Notes under the pieces: generated by a model | Told to the model about the DNA's origin: nothing | The model's input: the letters and a program-made list of their open reading frames with translations, nothing else | The model's database searches: none | From: Clytia hemisphaerica | Lineage: Eukaryota | DNA length: 64,000 nt | Assembly (NCBI RefSeq): GCF_902728285.1 | Contig: NW_027103286.1 | Span: 3,292,497-3,356,496 of the forward strand | Reading direction: 5' to 3' | Shown here: in pieces, positions 7,104 to 63,428 of the stretch | How positions within the stretch are numbered: the first letter of the stretch is position 1 | How the letters are laid out: the number at the start of each line of letters is the position of its first letter | Position numbers and translations under genes: made by a program

Positions 7104-7236
7104 GTAAGAACTTATCATTTCATTTTTAGAAATAAAGAAATGCATGTATATTGTACGATGGCTCTGAAAGCGGTTTTATTCTCTTTTTCAAAATTTCTCC
7201 GTTCCTTTTAATGAAAAGGAGAAGTGAAATATGAAA

Positions 7237-7340
7237 GGTGAACTTTTTTCTCCTTTTAACACAAAAGGTGAACTTTTTTCTCCTTTTAACACAAAAAGGT
7301 GAACTTTTTTCTCCTTTTAACACAAAAGGTGAATTTTTTT
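7237..7340. repeat. Tandem ~30 bp repeat (aaaaggtgaacttttttctccttttaacac), 4 copies, in the intron of zinc-finger gene B
   Basis: Direct reading. Confidence 0.8.
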
Positions 7341-7736
7341 CACTTCACCTTTTGACAAAATGGAAATAGGAATTCTAAGGGAATGCACACGTGTGTGGAC
7401 AATCATTCGTGTTAAATATGTACAGTACTAGCTAATAGCCAGGCCATGACTTGATGATAACCTTTATTAGATTTCCCAGAAACAAAACGAGGGGGGAAAA
7501 ATGAAGTAAAGCCGAATGATAGAAGTGAATCTCCTATGTAGAATTTGAAGCAAATTGTTTTCTACATAAGTTGCGCGGCCCGCATGGTTTTTGTATACAA
7601 ACGCCAGATTAAAGATGGTCCGAAGACAACGGGAAATATTAAACTTTTCCTCATCAACTCACGATTAAGGTTCAGGTTAAAATCATGAAATTCAAGGTTA
7701 AAATGCATGACGACTAGTCTAAAAATCCAAATCCAG

Positions 7737-7935
7737 GCGATAAAAAAATTCACCTTTTGACAAAAGGTGAAAAAAATTCTCCTTTTGACAAAAGGTGAAA
7801 ATAATTCTCCTTTTGACAAAAGGTGAAAAAAGTTCTCCTTTTGACAAAAGGTGAAAATAATTCTCCTTTTGACAAAAGGTGAAAAAAGTTCTCCTTTTGA
7901 CAAAAGGTGAAAGAAATTCTCCTTTTGAAATTCAC
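7737..7935. repeat. Tandem ~33 bp repeat (ttctccttttgacaaaaggtgaaaaaaa, with palindromic core caccttttgacaaaaggtga), 6 copies, related to the 7237 array
   Basis: Direct reading; creates the spurious minus-strand ORFs 7562..7954 and 7750..8058. Confidence 0.8.
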
Positions 7936-8111
7936 TTCTCCTTTTGTTAAACAATAGAACCTATTGTTTGTTTTAAAAGGAAAAGAGAATTTGAAATGGA
8001 GAGGAAATTCTCCCTCAGAGCCATCGTAATATTGTCCCGATTTTCTTTCTTTTATCATCCTAGCTTAATAATGTTGCACAATCTCTCTAAGCTAATAAAT
8101 TTTCTCTTTAG

Positions 8112-9127
8112 TACGGAAAATGGAGAGAGTACGATCAATGTGGAGCAAGGAGTTGACAACAAGTACCATTGTTCACAATGCCCCAAAATGTATACAAGAA
8201 ACCATAGGCTGAAACTTCATGTTCAGCAAGCACATGGGTTGCCAAGCACCAAAGATCGTCACAAACAAGCTTGCGATGAACCTGGTTGTCAACATACATT
8301 TTATAAGAGGAAGGATCTGGTTCAACATCAAAAGATTGCTCATAAAATTGAGTTTGATGAAAGAAACTTTCAATTTGATACCATGGAAGATTTTTATCAT
8401 TGGAAAGAACAGGAGGAAATTTCGAATCATGTTTATTTTACTAAACAAGGTAGCAAAAAGAAGGGAACAACCACCTACCTTTTCTGTCAATTTGATGGCC
8501 ATATTCACTCGCACAAAAAGAAAGGAGAGCCTCACCGAAAGACTGATCGCAGACAGACTTACGGCGTACTAAAAACAGGGTTGATATGTCCAGCTAGAAT
8601 AATAGTTACAGAGAAAGCCACTACTGTCGAGGTTGAATATATTGCAACACACAATCATGACGTGAAGCTTGAAGATACGAAACATCAGTCCCTTAAAATC
8701 GGCAAAAATGTGAGCAATGAATGGTTTGTGCATTCTTTGAACTTGCCAGGAGTTTCTTATACAGTCAAAAAGATTGTCGACGATTGTCTTTGCGAAGAAG
8801 AAAGAACGGAGAACGACCTGTAGCCATTTGTACACATGCAACTGCTCATGCCCGCTCCCTATTTGCAAACATGTGTTCAAAGTTAATTTCTCTTATAAAA
8901 GACCTAAAAGGAAGTCGAAAAAGCAATCGCAAATTGTCGAGGACAACTTTCAAGAAGAAGAAGATCTTATAGATTACGATACAAAAGAGCAATATTTGAA
9001 TATGTTGGAACATTTCAAGAAATACGCGGAGAATCCCTCTTTTACGGATGAAATGATGGAACTGCTAACTCAAGAATTGAATGAAATAAGACTTAAAACT
9101 GAAGCGCTGCTTTCTACTTCCACCTAA
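8112..9127 (+). pseudogene. Zinc-finger gene B module exon (C2H2 pair + FLYWCH-type finger + Cys-rich tail); the reading frame breaks at about 8818-8822 (probable 2-bp deletion, ctgt[gc]agcc); possibly a pseudogene, a truncated protein or a sequence error
   Basis: ORF 7996..8823 (frame 1) continues as ORF 8774..9127 (frame 2); by alignment to gene A (EDGLCSHIYICDC vs ENDL*/TTCSHLYTCNC) the shift sits at CTGTAGCC. Confidence 0.5.
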
Positions 9128-12950: not shown

Positions 12951-14081
12951 TCATTCTTCACAACTCGATAGCGTGTAATGTTTCAATGTCTTCAATTTCA
13001 GAATTTCACTTACAGTATTTCGTGATAATTTACACCGCACATGGATACTCTCCAAACTCTCACATTCCTTAACAACGCGCAATACGGCATCGTCAAGTTC
13101 GGCATTTGGTGATGACGTCACTTCTAAAACACGCAAAGTTTGTTTGTAGATCATGGAGGCGAGATTTATATGTTCGTTGACTGTGGCTTGAAAGTATAGC
13201 TTTAAGCTGGATACGGGCACTTCCGGTAACATAATACGGAAGGTGGATTGTAGCGGATAAGTTGGATCGAAATGTAGCTCGATTCGTAGATCAGGGATGG
13301 CTTGACGTATCGAATTCCAATCGTCGCCACTCAAACATTTAAAGAATTTATCCGCGCGTTTAAAAGTGAGCGAAAGGAATTTCAATTTGGTTGTTTCGGA
13401 GATCTGTTTCAGAGCTTCTCCTTCAAAGCACGAGTATGGGATATGTAAAGTGTTCAGGTTAGATGCTTTCGAAACGAATTTAGCGATACACTTAGCAGAG
13501 ATCCGACCCATAAGGATTTTGTTTTGGATGTTCAATTGTTCTAAGCTATCTGCGTGGTTTTGAGTAATGATGTTTAGCAAGTCATCATCAAACGCTACTG
13601 GGAACTTCGATAGGTCGATTTGTTTCAACGGTTGTTTGAAAGATGGATGAAGGAAAAAATTCTTCAATGTGCCCAGTAAGAGGTGCCCAGAATAAAATAA
13701 AGGATTCTCTTCACAAAATTCGAGCGTGAAATTTTCCAGTCTCAGAGTTGGCTGTCCAACTAAAGCTTCCAAAAAGGCACAAGTATTCGTTCGGTTATTC
13801 TTAGCGCTCTGATGACATTTGATGTGTAGGTTTTTGAAGTATTTCCCATAATGCTTTGCGACAAGTTCTAATTTAGCATCTCTTTCTTCTTTGAAAATCA
13901 CAATGACGTCATTCCACAGGTGTCCCACACAAAGCGAGCGGTACCAACGCCGACATGCGGACGCTGCTTGATAGCGGTCAACCAAATCTAAACCGGTTAA
14001 AATTTCAACGCAAATTTCTTCCGGAAGTAATTGCCAATCGTGTTGCATGCTTGATAGATTGTACATTTTTAAAGTTTTCAA
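12951..14081 (-). CDS. Intronless F-box protein with an LRR-like C-terminus (376 aa; F-box = LPEEICVEILTGLDLVDRYQAASACRRWYRSL)
   Basis: Uninterrupted 1131-nt ORF; F-box consensus (LP.EI...IL..L...DL.....VCK.W) near the N-terminus; regularly spaced leucines later. Confidence 0.65.
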   Translation of the reverse strand: MKTLKMYNLSSMQHDWQLLPEEICVEILTGLDLVDRYQAASACRRWYRSLCVGHLWNDVIVIFKEERDAKLELVAKHYGKYFKNLHIKCHQSAKNNRTNTCAFLEALVGQPTLRLENFTLEFCEENPLFYSGHLLLGTLKNFFLHPSFKQPLKQIDLSKFPVAFDDDLLNIITQNHADSLEQLNIQNKILMGRISAKCIAKFVSKASNLNTLHIPYSCFEGEALKQISETTKLKFLSLTFKRADKFFKCLSGDDWNSIRQAIPDLRIELHFDPTYPLQSTFRIMLPEVPVSSLKLYFQATVNEHINLASMIYKQTLRVLEVTSSPNAELDDAVLRVVKECESLESIHVRCKLSRNTVSEILKLKTLKHYTLSSCEE

Positions 14082-31809: not shown

Positions 31810-31888
31810 CGATGTTTCGACAGGCGAATCCAATGTAATCTGGTACGGAAAACAATTTGGTTTCTGATGCAAAATTGCCATTTTCGTA
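31810..31888 (-). CDS. MVP: MVP exon 17 (YENGNFASETKLFSVPDYIGFACRNI); its 3' splice site is the seed of the adjacent minisatellite
   Basis: Acceptor ctttcag, donor G|GTATGT; matches ETAKLFSVPDFVGDACKAIA. Confidence 0.8.
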
Positions 31889-33497
31889 CTGAAAGAAAAG
31901 AGAAAGAGGTCAATTATTTGTATGAAATTGCCATTTTCATACTGAAAGAAAAGAGAAAGAGGTCAGTTATTTGTATGAAATTGCCATTTTCATACTGAAA
32001 GAAAAGAGAAAGAGGTCAGTTATTTGTATGAAATTGCCCATTTTCGTACTGAAAGAAAAGAGAAAGAAGGTCAGTTTATTTGTATGAAATTGCCATTTTC
32101 GTACTGAAAGAAAAGAGAAAGAGGTCAGTTATTTGTATGAAATTGCCATTTTCGTACTGAAAGAAAGAGAAAGAGGTCAATTATTTGTATGAATTGCCAT
32201 TTTCATACTGAAAGAAAAGAGAAAGAGGTCAGTTATTTGTATGAAATTGCCATTTTCGTACTGAAAGAAAAGAGAAAGAGGTCAGTTATTTGTATGAAAT
32301 TGCCATTTTCGTACTGAAAGAAAAGAGAAAGAGGTCAATTATTTGTATGAAATTGCCATTTTCGTACTGAAAGAAAGAGAAAGAGGTCAGTTATTGTATG
32401 AAATTGCCATTTTCGTACTGAACAAAAGAGAAAGAGGTCAATTATTGTATGAAATTGCCATTTTCATACTGAAAGAAAAGAGAAAGAGGTCAGTTATTTG
32501 TATGAAATTGCCATTTTCGTACTGAAAGAAAAGAGAAAGAGGTCAATTATTTGTATGAAATTGCCATTTTCATACTGAAAGAAAAGAGAAAGAGGTCAGT
32601 TATTTGTATGAAATTGCCATTTTCATACTGAAAGAAAGAGAAAGAGGTCAGTTATTTGTATGAAATTGCCATTTTCGTACTGAAAGAAAAGAGAAAGAGG
32701 TCAGTTATTTGTATGAAATTGCCATTTTCATACTGAAAGAAAAGAGAAAGAGGTCAGTTTTTGTATGAAATTGCCATTTTCGTACTGAAAGAAAAGAGAA
32801 AGAGGTCAGTTATTTGTATGAAATTGCCATTTTCGTACTGAAAGAAGAGAAAAGAGGTCAGTTATTTGTATGACATTGCCATTTTCATACTGAAAGAAAA
32901 GAGAAAGAGGTCAGTTATTTGTATGAAATTGCCATTTTCGTACTGAAAGAAAAGAGAAAGAGGTCAGTTATTTGTATGAAATTGCCATTTTCATACTGAA
33001 AGAAAAGAGAAAGAGGTCAGTTATTTGTATGAAATTGCCATTTTCGTACTGAAAGAAAAGAGAAAGAGGTCAGTTATTTGTATGAAATTGCCATTTTCGT
33101 ACTGAAAGAAAAGAGAAAGAGGTCAGTTATTTGTATAGAAATTGCCATTTCGTACTGAAAGAAAAGAGAAGAGGTCAATTATTTGTATGAAATTGCCATT
33201 TTCATACTGAAGAAAAGAGAAAGAGGTCAGTTTATTTGTATGAAATTGCCATTTTCGTACTGAAAGAAAGAGAAAGAGGTCAGTTTATTGTATGAAATTG
33301 CCATTTTCGTACTGAAAGAAAGAGAAAGAGGTCAGTATTTGTATGAAATTGCCATTTTCGTACTGAAAGAAAAGAGAAAGAGGTCAGTTATTTGTATGAA
33401 ATTGCCATTTTCATACTGAAAGAAAAGAGAAAGAGGTCAGTTATTTGTATGAAATTGCCATTTTCATACTGGAAGAAAAGAGAAAGAGGTCAGTTAT
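31861..33497. repeat. Minisatellite, about 30 copies of a ~52 bp unit (gaaattgccattttcgtactgaaagaaaagagaaagaggtcagttatttgtat); on the minus strand each unit is a polypyrimidine tract + CAG + the first 17 nt of MVP exon 17
   Basis: Periodicity read directly; the first unit overlaps the real exon 17 acceptor at 31888-31890. Confidence 0.9.
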
Positions 33498-33664
33498 TCT
33501 ATTTAGTCGGACACTTATATCAAGAATCAGAGCTTTGGTCTGGCCATTTTTTTGTCTGAGCTTCGGGCTGTTCTCGTATCAGCTTATATAAAGAACACGA
33601 CTTTGGTTCTCTTCGGCGAAGTAAAATTTTGGAAATAAGTTAATCGGGTAGTATAAGTACATAC

Positions 33665-39218: not shown

Positions 39219-42200
39219 TCATTTATGATATTCGAGCTTAGCTTTACTGTTTAAGTAATTGATAAAAAATTGAATTTTTCTCTCGTCACTGCCAGAGTTC
39301 ATCCCGACTGTTTTTTCGGCTTCGGCGAATGGCCAATCCACCTCGACTTGTAAAGAATTCACGGTTCTGATGAAGCCGACGCAATCTTTATTGTTTAGTT
39401 CAATGACCAAACCTTGGGAGCCTATCATGACGTCAGGGATTTTCAACTTGAGCGAGAAAAACTTCATGAAAAACTTGATTTGCTGTTCGTAATATAAGGG
39501 AATTGTAGAATCCAATGGTACACTTTGAATCTCAACTACAGTAAATGGTAATGGACAGAGAGGTTTGGTTTTTGATTGATGAAAGAACTTTAAAAACCAT
39601 TTACATTCCGGTACGTCCATATCGATAATCAGTGACTCGAGTCCGACCATTTTATCCGGGATTTTGAGGACTGATGTCACTTTTCCAGAGGAATCAGTTT
39701 TAACAATATTAGTACTGGTAAAAGATGCCTCCATGTCACGTATGTCTTGAGAAGTCAAATGACTACAAATCTCAAACTTTTGGAACGGGTCTTCATCTAA
39801 CTTCAATGATGTGGCGGTGACAAGTTTAAGGAACCCCATGCATTCTTTATGGTGTTTGTTAATGAGCAACGTGTCACCACCCTTCATACAATCCGGTACT
39901 TTTAAAGTCGTGATATTGTTCTTTTCAAGCAAGTAAACAACTTCCTCAATATAATCAAGCTGTATATCAGACTTTACCTCAGCTGTTTTATCAAACGAAC
40001 TATCAACAATAACAAAATTTCGATCAACACCAATCAGAGCGATTAGGTTTTTGAACTCTGGGGTGTCCATATCAATAATCAAAGTATTTTGTCCAATCAA
40101 ACAATTTGGTCTTTTGAGTTTGAGGTTCATATCATTTATGAAGCTTGCTACTTTAATTGGTTCACCTTCCATAAGCAGTCGCTGGATACTTGCTGTAGAA
40201 TATGGACATTCAACTTGATAATTTGAATAATAAATGAAGTTAATTAACTCTCTGCAAGCATCTATAGCTGTGTTGATGATTATAGAGTCAGTATCTACCA
40301 TAGATCTAGGAAGTTCAAGTTTGAGATTCGAAGATTCAATAATGTATTTGATCTGTTCTATATTCTTTTGATTTATTTGACTGTGGATTTCGATCGATGT
40401 CATTGGATAAACTGGTTTCAATTGCAGATCATAAGCAACGTTTATATGATGTCTACACTCTGGAAAATTCGTATTGATAATAATCGAGTCAGTACTAACC
40501 ATACAGCTAGGAATGTCGAGTTTTAAATTCGAGGCTTTGATAATATATTGTATTTTTCTCATATCTGTACGATTGATTTGACTGTGAATTTCGATCGAAG
40601 TTGCAGGATAAACTGGTTGTAATTGCAGATCATAAGCAATGTTTATATGATATCTACATTCGGGGGAATTCGTGTTGATAATTAAAACATCAGAGCCGAT
40701 CATACAATCGGGGACTTTTAATTTCAAATTCAAACGTTTGATAATAGACGGTAATTTATCTTTGATGAATTGTTCATCCTCAGGCTTTAAAAATGCTTCG
40801 CCTGCAGAAAATGGATATTTGACGTAAGAATATGGACAATCCACCGACGCCCTAGTTCTATGGACAATTTTCATAAATTGGATACATTCAGTGTTCCTAG
40901 TGTTAACGACTAAAGCATTAGTGCTTTTCATCACGCGTGGAAGTCTTAATACGAGATTCAGATGTTGAACAAGAAAACTCACGAGGTCGAAGTCAAAATT
41001 AACCTCAAAGGTGATGTCAGCTTTGGCAAAGAGATGATCTTTTGATGTTAACTTCGAATCTCTCAAAAACTTAACCCACTGTTTACATTCTGGTATTGCA
41101 GTATTAATGATGAGACTATCCACGCCCTGCATACATCTAGGTATTTTAAGCTTGAGATTCAAATGTTCGACAAGGAAAACGACATTCCTCAAATCAATTC
41201 CACGAAGATCACATTTGATCTCCACTGTAGAAAATGGGCATTCTACGCGCATGCGTCCTTCATAGAGCGTCGTCATGAATTCTTGGCATTCTGGGATTTC
41301 AGAATTAACGATCAGGCTGTCCGGTCCAAACATACAATCTGGTATTTCAACAACACTATTCTTTACCAGGTACCTTTCAAATCTCCAGGATCTGAAGGGC
41401 TGTACAAATCTTCCATACATGGATGACCTACTCCGATGTAAATCAGATAGCCGTCTGAAGAATTTAATGAAAACGTCGTTCTCGTTCAAAAGTCGACCGA
41501 TACCGAACATAACAGGTGCACAACTTGAAAGCTCGCGGTTTCTTAAATATGGAGAGATTCCTTTAGTAACGTACAAATGAAGTCCTGTCAGGAATTCCTG
41601 AAGAACTAAGTGCTTGTACTGGTAAATCGGTTCTCGCATTTCACCACGATTGTATTTGACGATAAGACCCGTTTGCTCAAGATGTACGGGACATTTCAAT
41701 TGACGAACCTCCTCTTCAGAAAACAATACCTGGTTTTTCATATAAGTTTTTACCGATAAAGTCATCAATGAATAAATACAATCGATCACATTAGCATCGT
41801 CAAGCATTTCAAGCAAGTTGTCATAGCCTTTATTACATAAACCTTGTAAATGTTTCCTCAAAAAGACAAGGCATGCATACATGTTAAGTTCAGTGTAAGT
41901 ATTTAACGGTTTCGTTATGAGATCCTCGCTGTACACGTTACAGATGACCCAAGCAAACACGGGAACGGTAGACATGACTTTCAAATTATGCGATGACCTA
42001 ATGATCTCCTTCACTCGAATGGCTTTTTCAGTGTTCTCGTTAAAGAATTTATCGATGTATTGTTCGACTTCCTCCTCTTTGAAACCGCAAACCTCAACTG
42101 TTTTTATTTTGATCACCTTTCTGCTGGAAATTTTTAACTCCAGAATCTCTTTCTTTACAAAGTCACACGCTTTTGGTCTCCCAGATGCAATACATTTGTG

Positions 42201-42869
42201 GCCTTTCAAAATAGAACCTTGTGTGTTGATAAGATCGAAGACGATTTGAAAAGGAGTCAGACTTTTGACTTTCATCTTGGATTTATTCTTGGAGCGATCG
42301 TAAACACCTTGTAATTCGTCGAGCCCGTCAATGATTACCAGAATTTTATCCGCAACTGGTTCGAGATCTCTCAATGTGATCTTTTCGAAAATGTCAGGGT
42401 ATTTGATTTTAAATAGATCATCAATTGATTCCAGCTTGTCGTAGATTTGATTGATTTCACGGCATGAAAAGAAGAAGACAAACTCCATCGGGAAATCTAA
42501 TCCAAGTTGACGTTTGGCCCATTTCTGGGTATACATTTCAAGCATGGTTGTTTTTCCCATGCCACCCACAGCACGAACAAAAACTGCTTCATCCTCCTTC
42601 TGGAACAAGTCATGGAGTTCTATACTTTCTTTCTGTAAAAGCCTTTGTTCCATCAGCGCCTTACGGTCCGAATTATTGATCTCTTTTTCAACCTCGGTTG
42701 CTTTGAGGACCGCTAGTTCAGTGTATAAGTTTTCATCGTATTGGTAATTGACTTGATTCTTGTCTCCCATCAAAGGCTCGTGAACGAGTGACGTAATCAC
42801 TTCCTTAGCGTATTGACATCGTAATTTTAACGATGCTGATTGGATATCTAAAAAAAAGAATTTTGACAT
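39219..42869 (-). CDS. Intronless NACHT-family NTPase (NLR-like), 1216 aa: short N-terminal region, Walker A VGGMGKTT, Walker B ILVIIDGLDEL, then about 11 copies of a ~90-aa repeat with core NLKL.IPDCM.G.D.LIINT..PEC..F; nested in MVP intron 3, same strand
   Basis: Single 3651-nt ORF, the longest in the window; P-loop and DGLDE motifs read directly; the repeat period is visible in protein and DNA (40260-40700 holds two near-identical units). Confidence 0.85.
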   Translation of the reverse strand: MSKFFFLDIQSASLKLRCQYAKEVITSLVHEPLMGDKNQVNYQYDENLYTELAVLKATEVEKEINNSDRKALMEQRLLQKESIELHDLFQKEDEAVFVRAVGGMGKTTMLEMYTQKWAKRQLGLDFPMEFVFFFSCREINQIYDKLESIDDLFKIKYPDIFEKITLRDLEPVADKILVIIDGLDELQGVYDRSKNKSKMKVKSLTPFQIVFDLINTQGSILKGHKCIASGRPKACDFVKKEILELKISSRKVIKIKTVEVCGFKEEEVEQYIDKFFNENTEKAIRVKEIIRSSHNLKVMSTVPVFAWVICNVYSEDLITKPLNTYTELNMYACLVFLRKHLQGLCNKGYDNLLEMLDDANVIDCIYSLMTLSVKTYMKNQVLFSEEEVRQLKCPVHLEQTGLIVKYNRGEMREPIYQYKHLVLQEFLTGLHLYVTKGISPYLRNRELSSCAPVMFGIGRLLNENDVFIKFFRRLSDLHRSRSSMYGRFVQPFRSWRFERYLVKNSVVEIPDCMFGPDSLIVNSEIPECQEFMTTLYEGRMRVECPFSTVEIKCDLRGIDLRNVVFLVEHLNLKLKIPRCMQGVDSLIINTAIPECKQWVKFLRDSKLTSKDHLFAKADITFEVNFDFDLVSFLVQHLNLVLRLPRVMKSTNALVVNTRNTECIQFMKIVHRTRASVDCPYSYVKYPFSAGEAFLKPEDEQFIKDKLPSIIKRLNLKLKVPDCMIGSDVLIINTNSPECRYHINIAYDLQLQPVYPATSIEIHSQINRTDMRKIQYIIKASNLKLDIPSCMVSTDSIIINTNFPECRHHINVAYDLQLKPVYPMTSIEIHSQINQKNIEQIKYIIESSNLKLELPRSMVDTDSIIINTAIDACRELINFIYYSNYQVECPYSTASIQRLLMEGEPIKVASFINDMNLKLKRPNCLIGQNTLIIDMDTPEFKNLIALIGVDRNFVIVDSSFDKTAEVKSDIQLDYIEEVVYLLEKNNITTLKVPDCMKGGDTLLINKHHKECMGFLKLVTATSLKLDEDPFQKFEICSHLTSQDIRDMEASFTSTNIVKTDSSGKVTSVLKIPDKMVGLESLIIDMDVPECKWFLKFFHQSKTKPLCPLPFTVVEIQSVPLDSTIPLYYEQQIKFFMKFFSLKLKIPDVMIGSQGLVIELNNKDCVGFIRTVNSLQVEVDWPFAEAEKTVGMNSGSDERKIQFFINYLNSKAKLEYHK

Positions 42870-43253: not shown

Positions 43254-43454
43254 CTAACCTTCAGTAACAAGTGTATTCTGCTTGATATTATTGATAATAT
43301 CCACTCCATTTAACCTTTCCAACTCCAATTCTAACCGTGACCATTCGACTGTTTTGAGTTGATCCGTTAGATTTTCATCTTCATTCGACGATAAACCAAG
43401 TCGTAAAAGTAATTGATTTTTCTCTTCCCCAATCTTGTTGGATATAATTTCCAA
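43254..43454 (-). other. 66-aa ORF between the HEPN and NACHT genes (…LLLRLGLSSNEDENLTDQLKTVEWSRLELELERLNGVDIINNIKQ…); could be an upstream coding exon or uORF of the NACHT gene, or noise
   Basis: ORF track; possible donor GAAG|GTTAGC at its 3' end and acceptor ttcagtag just upstream of the NACHT ATG. Confidence 0.2.
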
Positions 43455-43499
43455 AACTTCTGTGGTGCAATATATTCCAGGTTCTTAAAAAACAAAATT

Positions 43500-43948: not shown

Positions 43949-44941
43949 TTAAAATATATGGTGAAAAATACCTTTAAGTGTGGGTAAATTGTCTTTAATA
44001 AATTCATGTTCTTCTTTCAGACGCTCGACAAGGTGATAAAGATTTAAGATGCATTCTTTATTTTCTTGGTGAAAATCTTTGTGGTTCGCCAAGATGGTTG
44101 CATAATCATCCAATCTATCGCTGTGATCTTCAAGCACAATGTCGTGATCTACAAGGGTAGTATCGTGATCTGCAAGGGTAGTGTTGTGATCGCCAAGGGT
44201 AGTGCCATGTTCGTTCAAAGTAGTGTCATGTAAATTTAGGTTTTTATCTAGATTCGAAATTTCTTGGTTCTGAGTCACCATGTCTTTCTTTAATTGAATA
44301 TTATCCGCTCCAACGTGGGAAAGTTCGTTCAATATCTTTTTCGAGAAAAAGGATAAAGATTGAACTACGAGATTATTTGTGACATCAAGTGGTCTGTTTT
44401 TCAATGCGTTGAAATTATAAGTTGTGAGTCCTAAACCTATGACGATATTTTCCCCTTCACTCCATCTCAAGTTGAATTCAACCGAATCAATACTTTTGCC
44501 GTCAGCATGTAAAAGACGATTTCTCCAATCGCGTGCAAGAAGGACAAACGCTGCAGGACTGACGTCGGTTGGATCTAAAGCCTTTTTCCAACCCTTTTTA
44601 GGAGGTGGTAATGTAGTAAAATTGATAATCAAAACAATGATTAGAGTTATGTCAAACGTTTGACTGTCTGTTTGATTTGAGTTTGGGGGAAGTAAAGTAT
44701 CTACTTGGCTTTTCTTTAAAACGCCTTTCTTTGCTAACTGGTTTATTGTACTTTGTTGCTTTCGAAGTTCAATGTTAAGGGCTGTTGAGTTTCTCGGTAA
44801 GCCAACATAATTGGGATCGTTGTAATCATTATGTAAGAGAGCAAGTAGTGCGCCTTTTAGAGGCTCGTGAAGCAGAGTAGCTAATCTAAGCCAATTCTCT
44901 ATCTCTTGAATGGCCTGAGCTACAGTAACGTAGGATGACAT
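43949..44941 (-). CDS. Intronless DZIP3-type HEPN domain protein (330 aa): N-terminal HEPN (FDITLIIVLIINFTTLPPPKKGWKKALDPTDVSPAAFVLLARDWRNRLLHA, Rx4H) and C-terminal 8-aa repeats (DHDTTLVDH...), coiled-coil-like
   Basis: Single ORF; the HEPN_DZIP3 signature (FD..L..L.RN......PP..GW...P...D.S..A.I.R.K..RN...H) read directly. Confidence 0.7.
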   Translation of the reverse strand: MSSYVTVAQAIQEIENWLRLATLLHEPLKGALLALLHNDYNDPNYVGLPRNSTALNIELRKQQSTINQLAKKGVLKKSQVDTLLPPNSNQTDSQTFDITLIIVLIINFTTLPPPKKGWKKALDPTDVSPAAFVLLARDWRNRLLHADGKSIDSVEFNLRWSEGENIVIGLGLTTYNFNALKNRPLDVTNNLVVQSLSFFSKKILNELSHVGADNIQLKKDMVTQNQEISNLDKNLNLHDTTLNEHGTTLGDHNTTLADHDTTLVDHDIVLEDHSDRLDDYATILANHKDFHQENKECILNLYHLVERLKEEHEFIKDNLPTLKGIFHHIF

Positions 44942-56841: not shown

Positions 56842-57129
56842 GTAAGTAATTTCTTTTGATATGAAAGCCAAACTCATTACAATCACGTCAAAACAAACAA
56901 TAATCCTATACCGGATTTTTGATTTAGGGGGCCGGTAATAACCGAATATACCTTTTAAGTCACTTTGAAGCTGAAAGAGTTATGAACACTTTCCATTCTG
57001 TTATGAAAAAGTTTAAACCATTGAAATTGACCTTGGTCTAGAGCTCTAGACGTATCACTGTCTTAGTACACTTCTTACAAAGGATAAAGAACATGAGTGG
57101 CCATATCAAGGTATCTTTCTCCCTCCTAG

Positions 57130-57548
57130 ATGGATCAGGCACCACAACGACCAAAGCACCAGTCACTTCTGCGCCACGTGGCAAGCTCTTTAAACAAGTC
57201 AGCAGCAACAAATGTCTTGGTCATGATCACAACGATAACCTCATCTTCACCAGTCGTTGTCAAACACGCTTTGAAGCAATGGAAGGAAAATTATTCCAGT
57301 CTAATGCACCAGGAGCTAAATGCGCCGAAGCTTTGAGCAACAACAGTGAATCTGGGATTCGTTTCAGAGCTAATTGCGATCAAGGCTTCAGAAAAGTTCA
57401 AAAAGGCAGATATTTTGTCCTTCAACACAAACAAACTGGCAAATGTATTCATCCTAACCGAGGATCATCCAACCCTTCTGATGGAACCAAAGCTGTTATT
57501 TACCATGATTGCAATTCTGGCTCACGTATTCAGTTCAGAGAAGAATAG
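57130..57548 (+). CDS. Astacin terminal exon: Thr-rich linker + ~125-aa Cys-containing C-terminal domain (possible beta-trefoil/lectin-like; not ShK)
   Basis: Acceptor ctccctcctag; ORF through stop TAG 57546-57548. Confidence 0.65.
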
Positions 57549-59551: not shown

Positions 59552-61613
59552 AATAAAGACAAGGAGGAATTTTTTATCATAATTCAACGACCCAACATTT
59601 GAAGTCCAAAGAAAATTCGTGAAGGAGGCTCAGAGGAGTACCCAGAGTCAATTAAATTACCACTATTGTCTAGCCACTGGAAACAGGTGTTCATAGAAGA
59701 TGGTTTTTCGAACTTCACGAAAGTTGTTAATGAACGGGAATCAAACGATATATTTGCAATAGTACGCTGGATGGATGGAGAAATTGAGTATATAAAGTTG
59801 GAACTCTTAGCCGATGATCGATGGATTAAAAATCTAAGATTACAAAAATTTTAGATTGTTGAATAGGGAATGAATGAAATAGTTTATTTGAGAAGAAAAA
59901 CAACAACAATGGTAGCAAAATTCAACGTGGATACACCAAATAAAAGATGTGTAAACGAATGTATTTAAGTTATTACTATAATCCAAAAACCCTATGTAAC
60001 ACTACTTTGAGCTAAAATCGTAGAGGCAATAAAAAGAACTAAGAAAACAAAAATATTTATTGCTTGATGGTAATATATTTCTAGCTTATAAAAACAATGT
60101 TATCATTTACAAGGATCAAATCTCATTCTTTCATTGCATCATTTGGAATTTGTCGATTAATTAGAAAGCGACGTTTTTCAACAGCAAAATCTAATGCTTC
60201 TTCAAAATCCATATCTTCCTCATCTCTAACCCTTTGTAAAGTTTCCATCACAGATTTATGTGTTTTATCCTTTTCATTGCTCGAAGAAAAAGGATTTTAT
60301 ATTTATAAATCTCATGAATTGATAAGTCAGTCTCTTGACATTCGTTCAACATGCTCTCCCAAATATTAAATGTTTCTTTAACACCTTGAGATTCTTCACT
60401 ATCACTGGACATGGGCTCGCTGTCTGTAAAGTCTTCATCAGACTCTTCATCTTCTTCTTCAGATTCTTCAGGGTGAGCCTTTGCAACATGTCGATTATAA
60501 TTGCTTTTATTGGAAAAAGTCTTTTCGCAAATGTCGCATTCATACATCGTGTTTCTCCCGCCGGTTTTAAACTTATTTGAAGAAGTAGCATCCTTACTTA
60601 CGAATTTATATGCAAAACACAAGAGTAATCCGATATCGGGTTTCTCTTTAGGAGCCTGGTTTCTCTCTAAGATCTTTGTTTCTTCCAGATTACCTCCTAG
60701 TCTTTATTGGTCCACGTTCGTTTCTTGGTCCGGGACTAGCTTGAGAAATCTAGTCTTACTTGATCCTCTTTTGGGACTCCAGTAGTTCTTTACCTAGTCC
60801 TTGTTAGTCCCTTTTTGAGACCAACCAATTATTATTGGTGGCTGCAAAAAGTAATCCCTTTTTGTGTCGACATAGTCCCTTTTAGACTTCTATTAGGACT
60901 ACCCGACTACCTTCCTGTTTCGGACTACTTAGTTTTGATAAACCTTTTTCGGAATTAGCTAAATCCTGTTTTGGATACCCAATTTAAGCTTCATGAGTAT
61001 CTAATCCTCTTTTGTATCTACATAGTCCTAGCTTAATTATCCTTAGGATTAACGGGACTACCTAATCCTTCTTTAGAACTAACCAATCCTTATTGGGATT
61101 GCCAAATCCCTCTTTGGGATCAACTAATCCTCATTTGAGATTACCTGATCCCTCTTTAGGATCAACTAATCCTCATTTAGGATTACCTAATCCCTCTTTG
61201 GGATCAGCTAATCCTCATTTAGCATTCCCTAATCCTTCTCTGGGATCAACTAATCCTCATTAGGGATTACCTAATCCCTCTTTGGGATTACCTAGTCCCT
61301 CTTTGGGACCAACTAATCCTCGTTTAGGGACTAGCTTGAGAAATCTAGTCTTACATGATCCTCTTTTGGGACTATGTAGTTCTTCACCTAGTCCTTGTTA
61401 GTCCCTTTTTTGAGACCAACCAATCGGAACTGCGTGATTCTAGTTAATCCCTCTTTTAGGATTACTTAATCACTAGTTGGATCCTTTCTTCCAATTCATA
61501 TCAAAGACTCATGGTATGTTGTTGTTGTTGTTTCCTTTTTCTTTTCTTTTCTTTTTTTTTTTTTACGCGTTTTTTGTTTGGTGTGGGATTTTATTATTTT
61601 GTTAGTTACACTC
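59552..61613. repeat. Left arm of a giant inverted duplication (at least 2.06 kb per arm; the right arm is cut by the window end, so the true extent is unknown)
   Basis: 59552-61613 is the reverse complement of 61938-64000, read directly; the ORF pairs are identical apart from one homopolymer indel. Confidence 0.9.
60960..61340. repeat. Array of ~25-bp units rich in TAATCC/GGATTA (ggattacctaatccctctttgggatcaactaatcctcattta), bounded by ~100-bp direct repeats (60730-60830 and 61320-61430); mirrored at 62205-62600
   Basis: Direct reading; more than 25 TAATCC hexamers per arm. Confidence 0.8.
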
Positions 61614-61948: not shown

Positions 61949-62927
61949 CAAAATAATAAAATCCCACACCAAACAAAAAACGCGTAAAAAAAAAAAAAGA
62001 AAAGAAAAGAAAAAGGAAACAACAACAACAACATACCATGAGTCTTTGATATGAATTGGAAGAAAGGATCCAACTAGTGATTAAGTAATCCTAAAAGAGG
62101 GATTAACTAGAATCACGCAGTTCCGATTGGTTGGTCTCAAAAAAGGGACTAACAAGGACTAGGTGAAGAACTACATAGTCCCAAAAGAGGATCATGTAAG
62201 ACTAGATTTCTCAAGCTAGTCCCCAAACGAGGATTAGTTGGTCCCAAAGAGGGACTAGGTAATCCCAAAGAGGGATTAGGTAATCCCTAATGAGGATTAG
62301 TTGATCCCAGAGAAGGATTAGGGAATCCTAAATGAGGATTAGTTGATCCCAAAGAGGGATTAGGTAATCCTAAATGAGGATTAGTTGATCCTAAAGAGGG
62401 ATCAGGTAATCTCAAATGAGGATTAGTTGATCCCAAAGAGGGATTAGGCAATCCCAATAAGGATTGGTTAGTTCCAAAGAAGGATTAGGTAGTCCCGTTA
62501 ATCCTAAGGATAATTAAGCTAGGACTATGTAGATACAAAAGAGGATTAGATACTCATGAAGCTTAAATTGGGTATCCAAAACAGGATTTAGCTAATTCCG
62601 AAAAAGGTTTATCAAAACTAAGTAGTCCGAAACAGGAAGGTAGTCGGGTAGTCCTAATAGAAGTCTAAAAGGGACTATGTCGACACAAAAAGGGATTACT
62701 TTTTGCAGCCACCAATAATAATTGGTTGGTCTCAAAAAGGGACTAACAAGGACTAGGTAAAGAACTACTGGAGTCCCAAAAGAGGATCAAGTAAGACTAG
62801 ATTTCTCAAGCTAGTCCCGGACCAAGAAACGAACGTGGACCAATAAAGACTAGGAGGTAATCTGGAAGAAACAAAGATCTTAGAGAGAAACCAGGCTCCT
62901 AAAGAGAAACCCGATATCGGATTACTC

Positions 62928-63428
62928 TTGTGTTTTGCATATAAATTCGTAAGTAAGGATGCTACTTCTTCAAATAAGTTTAAAACCGGCGGGAGAAACA
63001 CGATGTATGAATGCGACATTTGCGAAAAGACTTTTTCCAATAAAAGCAATTATAATCGACATGTTGCAAAGGCTCACCCTGAAGAATCTGAAGAAGAAGA
63101 TGAAGAGTCTGATGAAGACTTTACAGACAGCGAGCCCATGTCCAGTGATAGTGAAGAATCTCAAGGTGTTAAAGAAACATTTAATATTTGGGAGAGCATG
63201 TTGAACGAATGTCAAGAGACTGACTTATCAATTCATGAGATTTATAAATATAAAATCCTTTTTCTTCGAGCAATGAAAAAGGATAAAACACATAAATCTG
63301 TGATGGAAACTTTACAAAGGGTTAGAGATGAGGAAGATATGGATTTTGAAGAAGCATTAGATTTTGCTGTTGAAAAACGTCGCTTTCTAATTAATCGACA
63401 AATTCCAAATGATGCAATGAAAGAATGA
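62928..63428 (+). CDS. Arm-encoded 166-aa protein: single C2H2 finger (YECDICEKTFSNKSNYNRHVAKAH) + poly-acidic Ser/Glu stretch; mirrored copy 60248..60622 (-) is truncated by a 1-nt homopolymer difference (a4 vs a5 at ~60268/63283)
   Basis: ORF pair from the track; C2H2 consensus read directly. Confidence 0.45.
   Translation: MCFAYKFVSKDATSSNKFKTGGRNTMYECDICEKTFSNKSNYNRHVAKAHPEESEEEDEESDEDFTDSEPMSSDSEESQGVKETFNIWESMLNECQETDLSIHEIYKYKILFLRAMKKDKTHKSVMETLQRVRDEEDMDFEEALDFAVEKRRFLINRQIPNDAMKE

What the first reader, a model, noticed from the sequence alone, without database searches (positions are those of the whole stretch)
40260..40790. Near-identical adjacent repeat units inside the NACHT gene indicate very recent repeat expansion
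The two units encoding NLKLKVPDCMIGSDVLIINTNSPECRYHINIAYDLQLQPVYPATSIEIHSQINRTDMRKIQYIIKAS and NLKLDIPSCMVSTDSIIINTNFPECRHHINVAYDLQLKPVYPMTSIEIHSQINQKNIEQIKYIIESS are about 85 percent identical at the DNA level. Other units are far more diverged. Ongoing unit duplication or conversion is typical of rapidly evolving recognition surfaces. If the gene is part of an expanded family, this region could also be a collapsed-repeat assembly hotspot.
Basis: seen in the sequence. Interest (0 to 1): 0.55.

Follow-up and report, generated by a model that had tools for sequence, protein, structure and literature searches.

The report
Old repeat-unit duplication in jellyfish NACHT gene
Two neighbouring repeat units in a jellyfish (Clytia hemisphaerica) immune-receptor-like gene come from an old, not recent, one-unit tandem duplication made by unequal crossing-over; this is ordinary for such genes, but the 67-residue repeat itself matches no described family.

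Summary
They are the most similar of ten C-terminal repeat units (67% aa; all other pairs 18-42%). The DNA identity is 72.6% ungapped (79% gapped), not about 85%. Only the central ~114 nt reaches 84-86%, and the longest exact shared run is 19 nt.

R5 is a chimera. Its first 16 codons match the next unit R6 (75% nt, against 54% to R4). The rest matches R4. The breakpoint lies at unit nt 46-51 (Fisher p=8e-8). The duplicated 201-nt blocks are therefore 40482-40682 and 40281-40481, the phase TRF reports.

Relatives (P0002, P0003, scaffold L002) carry one R4-type unit followed directly by an R6-type unit. The duplication is thus specific to this gene's lineage and carries the signature of unequal crossing-over.

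It is old: dS about 0.9 (95% 0.49-2.3), with dN/dS about 0.18. There is no sign of ongoing expansion or positive selection. Assembly collapse is implausible.

The gene encodes HEPN_DZIP3, NACHT and ten ~67-aa beta-alpha-beta-alpha repeats. The repeats have no Pfam, PDB-sequence or convincing PDB-fold match. They occur in only 54 of 1.84 billion protein clusters, and every named one is Clytia.

The parts
39219..42847 (-). Exon 3 of the gene (NACHT, helical post-NACHT region, whole repeat array, stop codon). The mechanical ORF extends to 42869.
   Evidence: ORF list. tblastn of annotated protein P0001, aa 399-1607, 100% identity. AG acceptor directly upstream of 42847.
43259..43483 (-). Exon 2 (linker of about 75 aa, no Pfam domain).
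   Evidence: P0001 sequence against the window. GT-AG, phase-1 junctions read from the sequence. No Pfam match.
43972..44941 (-). Exon 1: DZIP3/hRUL138-like HEPN domain (about 44378-44782, with an R-x4-H motif 'RNRLLH'), followed by a coiled region with a 21-nt heptad repeat.
   Evidence: Pfam PF18738, E=1.7e-25. P0001 is 100% identical and carries HEPN_DZIP3 plus NACHT. TRF 44123-44204. Donor site.
42036..42584 (-). NACHT NTPase domain (Walker A 'GGMGKTT', Walker B 'LVIIDGLDEL').
   Evidence: Pfam PF05729, E=9.6e-18, ORF aa 96-278. Motifs read from the translation.
39222..41360 (-). Array of 10 tandem repeat units of 67-79 aa: R1 41160-41360, R2 40959-41159, R3 40731-40958, R4 40530-40730, R5 40329-40529, R6 40128-40328, R7 39915-40127, R8 39678-39914, R9 39456-39677, R10 39222-39455. 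Each unit is predicted as beta-alpha-beta-alpha.
   Evidence: Unit delimitation and identity matrix. AF2 models with pLDDT 92.5 (R4-R6) and 79 (whole array). No Pfam or PDB-sequence match.
40482..40682 (-). Duplicated block A: body of R4 (codons 17-67) plus head of R5 (codons 1-16).
   Evidence: The phase scan gives its maximum, 77.6%, at 40682. This coincides with the end of the TRF array 40273-40682.
40281..40481 (-). Duplicated block B: body of R5 (codons 17-67) plus head of R6 (codons 1-16).
   Evidence: 156/201 nt and 48/67 aa identical to block A; dS 0.90, dN 0.165.
40479..40484 (-). Inferred crossover junction inside R5, at unit nt 46-51 in the conserved 'IINT' codons. It separates an R6-type head from an R4-type body.
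   Evidence: Maximum chi-square breakpoint. R5 follows R6 at 13/16 informative sites before it and R4 at 63/71 after it. Fisher p=8e-8; 0 of 5000 permutations reach the observed value. Outgroup confirmation.

Best explanation
The feature is a single-unit (201 nt, 67 codon) tandem duplication inside the C-terminal repeat array of a Clytia hemisphaerica NLR-like gene (HEPN_DZIP3 - NACHT - 10 repeats).

Inferred mechanism: the ancestral array had an 'X' unit (R4 type, with the motif PVYP..SIEIH) directly followed by a 'Y' unit (R6 type). An unequal crossover, or an equivalent misaligned repair or slippage event, paired the head of Y with the head of X. It resolved in the conserved 'IINT' codons. 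The product was X, then a chimera of Y-head plus X-body (R5), then Y. This added one unit in frame.

Shown: the event happened after this gene separated from its known relatives, and it is old at synonymous sites (dS about 0.7-0.9). Since then the copies have diverged mainly under purifying selection in the strand-helix-strand core. Change is heavier in the second helix (the tail) and in the head of R6.

Inferred: the functional consequence is one extra beta-alpha-beta-alpha turn in what is presumably the sensor or autoinhibitory solenoid of a STAND-type receptor.
For: - R4/R5 are the outlier pair: 67% aa against 18-42% for all others. TRF finds a period-201 array.
- The similarity is a mosaic. 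In the head (codons 1-16), R5 is 75% nt identical to R6 and 54% to R4. In the core (codons 17-54), R4 and R5 are 84% identical while R5 and R6 are 46%.
- The breakpoint at nt 46-51 has Fisher p=8e-8 and a permutation p below 1/5000. The best phase starts at 40682.
- Outgroup DNA (L002): its Y-head is 85% identical to the R5 head, 71% to R6 and 56% to R4. Its X-head is 79% identical to R4 and 67% to R5. The R4-R5 core is 86% identical, against 69-72% for either to L002.
- The protein head matrix gives the same grouping.
- Copy number: P0002, P0003 and L002 each have one X unit directly followed by Y, with positional orthology of the other units.
- Shared ancestry rather than protein-level constraint alone: core pS is 0.44, against 0.68-0.87 for unrelated unit pairs.
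- Age and selection: dS 0.90 (0.49-2.27), dN 0.165.
- The whole array lies in one exon, so no exon duplication is involved.
Against: - The tail (codons 55-67) shows no excess R4-R5 similarity: 60-62% nt, no better than to the outgroup. Either R4's second helix diverged fast, perhaps through small indels, or the high core identity reflects a later conversion tract.
- Heterogeneity between core and remainder is only modest (p=0.016).
- Estimates rest on 67 codons and about 40 synonymous sites.
- No Clytia paralogue DNA could be retrieved. Timing relative to gene duplication is therefore protein-based.
- L002 is a frameshifted metagenomic scaffold of unknown species.
- Crossover, replication slippage and misaligned repair cannot be told apart from sequence.
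Confidence: 0.8

Rival explanations
1. Very recent or ongoing repeat expansion on a rapidly evolving recognition surface, driven by diversifying selection.
For: The array as a whole diverges much faster than the HEPN and NACHT regions: 51% against 79-84% aa identity to P0002. Unit number varies among relatives. A relative (L001) has 192-nt units that are 83-100% identical, three of them 100% identical.
Against: At this locus the copies are 72.6-77.6% identical, dS is about 0.9 with a lower bound of 0.49, and the longest exact run is 19 nt. dN/dS is 0.18 overall and 0.14 in the core.
Confidence: 0.05
2. Gene conversion between two pre-existing neighbouring units, with no change in copy number. 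The central ~115 nt of one unit was overwritten by the other.
For: Identity is concentrated in the core (84-86%) and drops in the tail (60-62%). The core-versus-rest difference has p=0.016.
Against: Three independent relatives have X directly followed by Y, with no unit in between. R5's head is specifically Y-type (85% nt to the L002 Y-head), giving a clean 201-nt phase-shifted periodicity. Conversion alone would need a lost ancestral unit plus two separate tracts. Synonymous divergence of the head (0.8) and core (0.67) is similar. A conversion tract superimposed on the duplication is not excluded.
Confidence: 0.1
3. Assembly artefact: the unit count at 40281-40682 is wrong because repeats were collapsed or expanded.
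For: The region is a tandem repeat in a multigene family. No independent assembly or transcript of this exact gene was found: P0001 is a cluster of one and the look-ups failed.
Against: Collapse or expansion needs near-identical copies. Here there is 22-27% divergence, the longest shared exact run is 19 nt, and the ORF is intact and in frame across all junctions. The contig is multi-megabase.
Confidence: 0.03

Closest known systems
Cnidarian DZIP3/hRUL138-like HEPN - NACHT proteins (NLR-like; Emery et al. 2021, PMC8260672; Anantharaman et al. 2013, PMC3710099)
   Same: N-terminal HEPN_DZIP3 and a central NACHT with intact Walker motifs. HEPN_DZIP3 is reported as the commonest NACHT partner in C. 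hemisphaerica. DZIP3-type HEPN fusions to NACHT are reported in animals.
   Different: Those surveys describe no C-terminal repeat for the medusozoan proteins: no NACHT+LRR in any medusozoan, and of 56 Clytia NACHT/NB-ARC proteins only 3 have TPR, 3 WD40 and 0 LRR. Here a 10-unit array of an unannotated 67-aa repeat follows the NACHT.
Unit gain and loss by unequal crossing-over in the repeat arrays of immune receptors (e.g. LRR arrays of plant R genes and animal NLRs; from general knowledge, not tested here)
   Same: An in-frame, head-to-tail duplication of exactly one repeat period with a chimeric junction unit. Copy number varies among paralogues, and the array diverges faster than the NTPase module.
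   Different: The repeat is not an LRR. The event is old (dS about 0.9), with no signal of positive selection in the duplicated units.
Ribonuclease-inhibitor-type (NLR-type) leucine-rich repeats
Near-identical tandem units in a related metagenomic gene (P0013 on L001)
   Same: The same protein family and repeat type, in a tandem array of 7.4 units.
   Different: There, adjacent 192-nt units are 83-100% identical and three are 100% identical. That is a genuinely recent expansion, or itself an assembly problem, unlike the window locus.

Membership tests
NACHT-type STAND NTPase / NLR-like receptor | NACHT domain with Walker A (GxxxxGKT/S) and Walker B (hhhhDGhDE) motifs | tested here: met
   Pfam PF05729, E=9.6e-18, score 65 against a cutoff of 26.7. 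'GGMGKTT' and 'LVIIDGLDEL' are present in the translation.
NACHT-type STAND NTPase / NLR-like receptor | Tripartite architecture: N-terminal effector domain, central NTPase, C-terminal repeat array | tested here: met
   HEPN_DZIP3 (E=1.7e-25) in exon 1, NACHT, and 10 tandem repeats. The annotated protein P0001 joins them.
Canonical NLR (NACHT + LRR) | C-terminal leucine-rich repeats | tested here: not met
DZIP3/hRUL138-like HEPN | Pfam HEPN_DZIP3 match and the R-x4-6-H motif | tested here: met
   PF18738, E=1.7e-25, covering 137/144 profile positions. 'RNRLLH' is seen in the sequence. RNase activity was not tested.
Tandem duplication by unequal crossing-over | Head-to-tail copies of one period, an extra unit relative to relatives, and a chimeric junction unit | tested here: met
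   TRF period 201. One X unit in P0002, P0003 and L002. R5 is a chimera, p=8e-8, with outgroup confirmation.
Recent / ongoing repeat expansion | Near-identical copies (roughly >95% nt) with dS close to 0 | tested here: not met
   72.6-77.6% nt identity and dS 0.90 (0.49-2.27).
Diversifying selection on the duplicated units | dN/dS > 1 | tested here: not met
   dN/dS is about 0.18 for the blocks and 0.14 for the core. This is a pairwise estimate only. Site models could not be run for lack of paralogue DNA.
Collapsed-repeat assembly artefact | Copies too similar for reads to separate; read depth or long reads disagree with the unit count | tested here: not met
   The similarity criterion is not met: the longest shared exact run is 19 nt. 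Read depth and long reads are not testable with these tools.

The most novel reading that the evidence does not exclude
The 67-aa beta-alpha-beta-alpha units form a previously undescribed, lineage-restricted solenoid repeat class. It would take the place of LRR, TPR or WD40 as the sensor domain of hydrozoan HEPN-NACHT receptors, and it evolves by unit gain, loss and chimerisation through unequal crossing-over. That would explain why most Clytia NACHT proteins were scored as 'repeat-less' in published surveys.
Probability: 0.5. Interest if true: 0.55.

Novelty: new variant of a known kind. Interest (0 to 1): 0.3.

Why it matters
The reported feature, a duplicated repeat unit in an NLR-like gene, is an ordinary mode of evolution for such receptors. 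It is neither recent nor an assembly risk, so it should not be flagged as a hotspot.

The by-product is more useful. Published surveys find no recognised C-terminal repeats in most medusozoan NACHT proteins. This gene family has a long, confidently modelled alpha/beta repeat array that current domain libraries miss. A profile for it would change domain-architecture counts for hydrozoan NLR-like genes. It would also give a defined candidate sensor domain for functional work in Clytia, a genetically tractable jellyfish.

The chimeric R5 unit is a clean worked example of how the array changes length.

Tried and rejected
- Retrieving genomic DNA of the window gene or its closest paralogue from the assembly collection failed for P0001 and P0002.
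- The AFDB50 fold library was unavailable.
- A first alignment of overlapping unit triples (A1) went out of register because overlapping triples from the same protein aligned by identity. It was discarded for A2.
- Gapped DNA alignments inflate identities among unrelated units (58-75%). I used codon-registered comparisons instead.
- Exon duplication was considered and rejected: the whole array is in one exon.
- A possible compensated frameshift in the tail (RTDMRKIQ against QKNIEQIK) is suggested by the gapped alignment. It cannot be distinguished from chance and is not claimed.
- The three conserved Cys per unit as a possible metal site was considered. Many units, including R4-R6 and the L001 units, lack them, so the idea was not pursued.

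Full report
**What the locus is.** The window is eukaryotic: 35% G+C, with sparse ORFs. The 1216-aa ORF at 39219..42869 (-) is 100% identical to the C-terminal 1209 aa of an annotated 1607-aa Clytia hemisphaerica protein, P0001. The gene has three exons joined by phase-1 GT-AG introns:
- Exon 1, 43972-44941, carries a DZIP3/hRUL138-like HEPN domain (Pfam E=1.7e-25, motif RNRLLH) and a coiled segment with a 21-nt heptad repeat.
- Exon 2, 43259-43483, is a linker with no domain match.
- Exon 3, 39219-42847, carries the NACHT domain (E=9.6e-18; Walker A GGMGKTT, Walker B LVIIDGLDEL), a helical region and the whole repeat array.

The 'NACHT gene' label is therefore correct, and the array is not split by introns.

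**The observation.** Anchoring on the recurrent motif L-x-[LIV]-P-x-x-M gives ten tandem units of 67-79 aa, R1 to R10, at 39222-41360.
- They are the clear outlier pair: 67% aa identity, against 18-42% for the other 44 pairs.
- Codon-registered nt identity is 72.6%, against 43-50% for other equal-length units.
- TRF reports a 201-nt period array at 40273-40682 (80% matches, score 520).
- 'Near-identical' and 'about 85%' are overstatements. The figures are 146/201 = 72.6% ungapped and 79% gapped. 84% is reached only in codons 17-54, and the longest exact shared run is 19 nt.

**Anatomy of the similarity.** The similarity is a mosaic.
- In the first 16 codons (the 'head'), R5 resembles the following unit R6 (75% nt) and not R4 (54%).
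- From codon 17 on, R5 resembles R4 (84% in codons 17-54) and not R6 (46%).
- At sites where R4 and R6 differ, R5 follows R6 at 13 of 16 sites before unit nt 46-51, and follows R4 at 63 of 71 sites after it. Fisher p=8e-8, and none of 5000 permutations reaches the observed maximum chi-square.
- Scanning all phases, identity between successive 201-nt blocks peaks at 77.6% (48/67 aa) for blocks starting at 40682. That is exactly where TRF ends its array.

The real duplicated blocks are therefore 40482-40682 and 40281-40481. R5 is a chimera whose junction lies in the conserved IINT codons.

**Comparison with relatives.** The closest Clytia relatives with arrays show positional orthology of units to the window gene. 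These are P0002 (an NCBI protein model) and P0003 (a transcript-derived model).
- Both have a single R4/R5-type ('X') unit, recognisable by PVY...SIEIH...YIIKSS. It is followed directly by an R6-type ('Y') unit.
- A metagenomic scaffold, L002, carries a frameshifted relative that also has X followed by Y. It supplies outgroup DNA:
  - Its Y-head is 85% identical to the head of R5, 71% to R6 and 56% to R4.
  - Its X-head is 79% identical to R4 and 67% to R5.
  - The R4 and R5 cores are 86% identical to each other, but only 69-72% to L002.
- The protein head matrix gives the same grouping.

So the extra unit arose in the window gene's lineage after it separated from these relatives, and R5 has a Y-type head on an X-type body.

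**Mechanism (inferred).** This pattern is the classical product of unequal crossing-over, or of an equivalent misaligned repair or slippage event. The heads of adjacent X and Y units paired, and the exchange resolved in the conserved IINT segment. It converted X-Y into X-(Y head/X body)-Y and added exactly 201 nt in frame. The sequence cannot tell which molecular route was taken.

Other length changes in the family show that this mode recurs:
- P0002 lacks an R2 equivalent and has a fused R8/R9 unit.
- P0003 has an extra R6-like unit.
- L002 has a partial R7-like core inserted in its X unit.
- L001, a relative in another metagenome assembly, has a 7.4-copy, 192-nt array. Its adjacent units are 83-100% identical, and three are 100% identical.

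**Age and selection.**
- Nei-Gojobori estimates for the phase-corrected blocks give dS = 0.90 (bootstrap 95% 0.49-2.27) and dN = 0.165, so the ratio is about 0.18.
- For the core alone, dS = 0.67 and dN = 0.09.
- Core pS (0.44) is well below the saturated values of unrelated unit pairs (0.68-0.87). The similarity therefore reflects common descent and not only protein-level constraint.
- It is nonetheless far from recent. Nothing here suggests ongoing expansion or positive selection.
- The sample is small: 67 codons and about 40 synonymous sites.
- One irregularity remains. The tail (codons 55-67, the second helix) is no more similar between R4 and R5 (60-62% nt) than to the outgroup. Either R4's tail diverged quickly, or a later conversion tract refreshed the core. 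Heterogeneity is modest (p=0.016).

**Assembly concern.** Collapse or mis-expansion needs copies that reads cannot separate. With 22-27% divergence, a longest shared run of 19 nt and an intact frame, this is not such a place. No second assembly or transcript of this exact gene was available for direct confirmation.

**The repeat itself.**
- Pfam finds nothing in the array even at E<=10, and PDB sequences give no match.
- AlphaFold2 was run on R4-R6 with an in-register alignment of unit triples. It gives pLDDT 92.5 and pTM 0.83. Each unit is a short strand (LKIP), a turn (xCM), a strand (LIIN), a helix (PECxxF...), a strand (VEI) and a helix.
- The whole array models the same way in all ten units (pLDDT 79).
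- Foldseek against the PDB finds nothing below E=0.02.
- A profile of the repeat, searched against 1.84 billion cluster representatives, finds 54 proteins at E<=1e-3. Every named one is from Clytia hemisphaerica, and the rest are unnamed metagenome fragments.
- Published surveys report no NACHT+LRR in any medusozoan. For Clytia they report 56 NACHT/NB-ARC proteins, of which only 3 have TPR and 3 have WD40. They name HEPN_DZIP3 as the commonest NACHT partner. DZIP3-type HEPN fusions to NACHT were noted earlier. I found no paper describing this repeat.
- It is therefore a candidate undescribed repeat class. Whether it is a very divergent RI-type LRR or something distinct cannot be settled from predicted models.

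**Function (inferred from architecture).** By analogy with STAND/NLR receptors, the array is most likely the sensor and autoinhibitory module, the NACHT the nucleotide-driven switch, and the HEPN a putative RNase effector. The array's faster divergence fits a ligand-facing role: 51% aa identity to P0002, against 79-84% for the other modules. It would equally fit relaxed constraint. None of this was tested.

**Verdict.** There was a lineage-specific unit duplication in an expanded family. It is wrong on timing, on selection and on assembly risk. The duplication is an ordinary event for this kind of gene. The unannotated repeat class is the more noteworthy by-product.

Noticed in passing
window 39222-41360 (all ten units); models: The 67-aa beta-alpha-beta-alpha repeat has no Pfam, PDB-sequence or significant PDB-fold match. 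It occurs in only 54 of 1.84 billion protein cluster representatives, and all named ones are Clytia. It may be an undescribed NLR sensor repeat.
   Followed up: partly
P0002 aa 707-1402 against P0003: Two Clytia family members are about 99% identical through the post-NACHT region and repeat unit 1. They then drop abruptly to about 35-50% in the middle of the array, and return to about 75% in the last unit. This mosaic suggests inter-paralogue or allelic recombination, or a chimeric transcript model.
   Followed up: partly
L001 4338-5760 (ENA ERZ25072490 contig, gene of P0013): A related gene has a 192-nt, 7.4-copy array with adjacent units 83-100% identical, three of them 100% identical. This is either a genuinely recent expansion or an assembly problem in that metagenome.
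   Followed up: partly
L002 1-2075 (ENA ERZ23498758 scaffold): A relative of the array with several frameshifts and stops, so either a pseudogene or an error-rich scaffold. A partial R7-like core is inserted inside its X unit, flanked by a duplicated 'HRDAGMVK' segment.
   Followed up: partly
window 44123-44204 (exon 1): A 21-nt tandem repeat encodes heptads 'H[DGN]TTLxD' after the HEPN domain. Paralogues have different heptads and copy numbers (P0002 longer; P0005 'TENTEKL'; P0007 'HDTKLxA').
   Followed up: no
window 31872-33498: A 53-bp minisatellite with 30.9 copies and 95% matches. It coincides with the strong GC-skew spike (+0.30) in the 32-34 kb composition bin.
   Followed up: no
window 61054-61319 and 62222-62496: Two arrays of a 42-bp (2 x 21) repeat lie in inverted orientation about 0.9 kb apart; their consensus units are reverse complements. 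They sit just upstream of a small C2H2 zinc-finger ORF (62928-63428) and could be the ends of a mobile element.
   Followed up: no
window 7234-7341 and 7742-7928: Two related 28-30-bp tandem repeats (93-96% matches) lie just upstream of a C2H2 zinc-finger-like ORF (7996-8823).
   Followed up: no
window 12951-14081 (-) and 57093-57548 (+): An F-box-like ORF (Pfam E=3.6e-9) and an ORF with a weak, sub-threshold ricin-B lectin match (E=0.004). These are neighbouring genes, not examined further.
   Followed up: no
units R1-R10; e.g. R1 at window 41160-41360: Many units carry three conserved cysteines (PxCM, PEC, VECP) and often a His near the unit end. R4 and R5 replace VECP by PVYP, and the L001 units lack most of the cysteines. 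A structural or metal-binding role is possible but not general.
   Followed up: no
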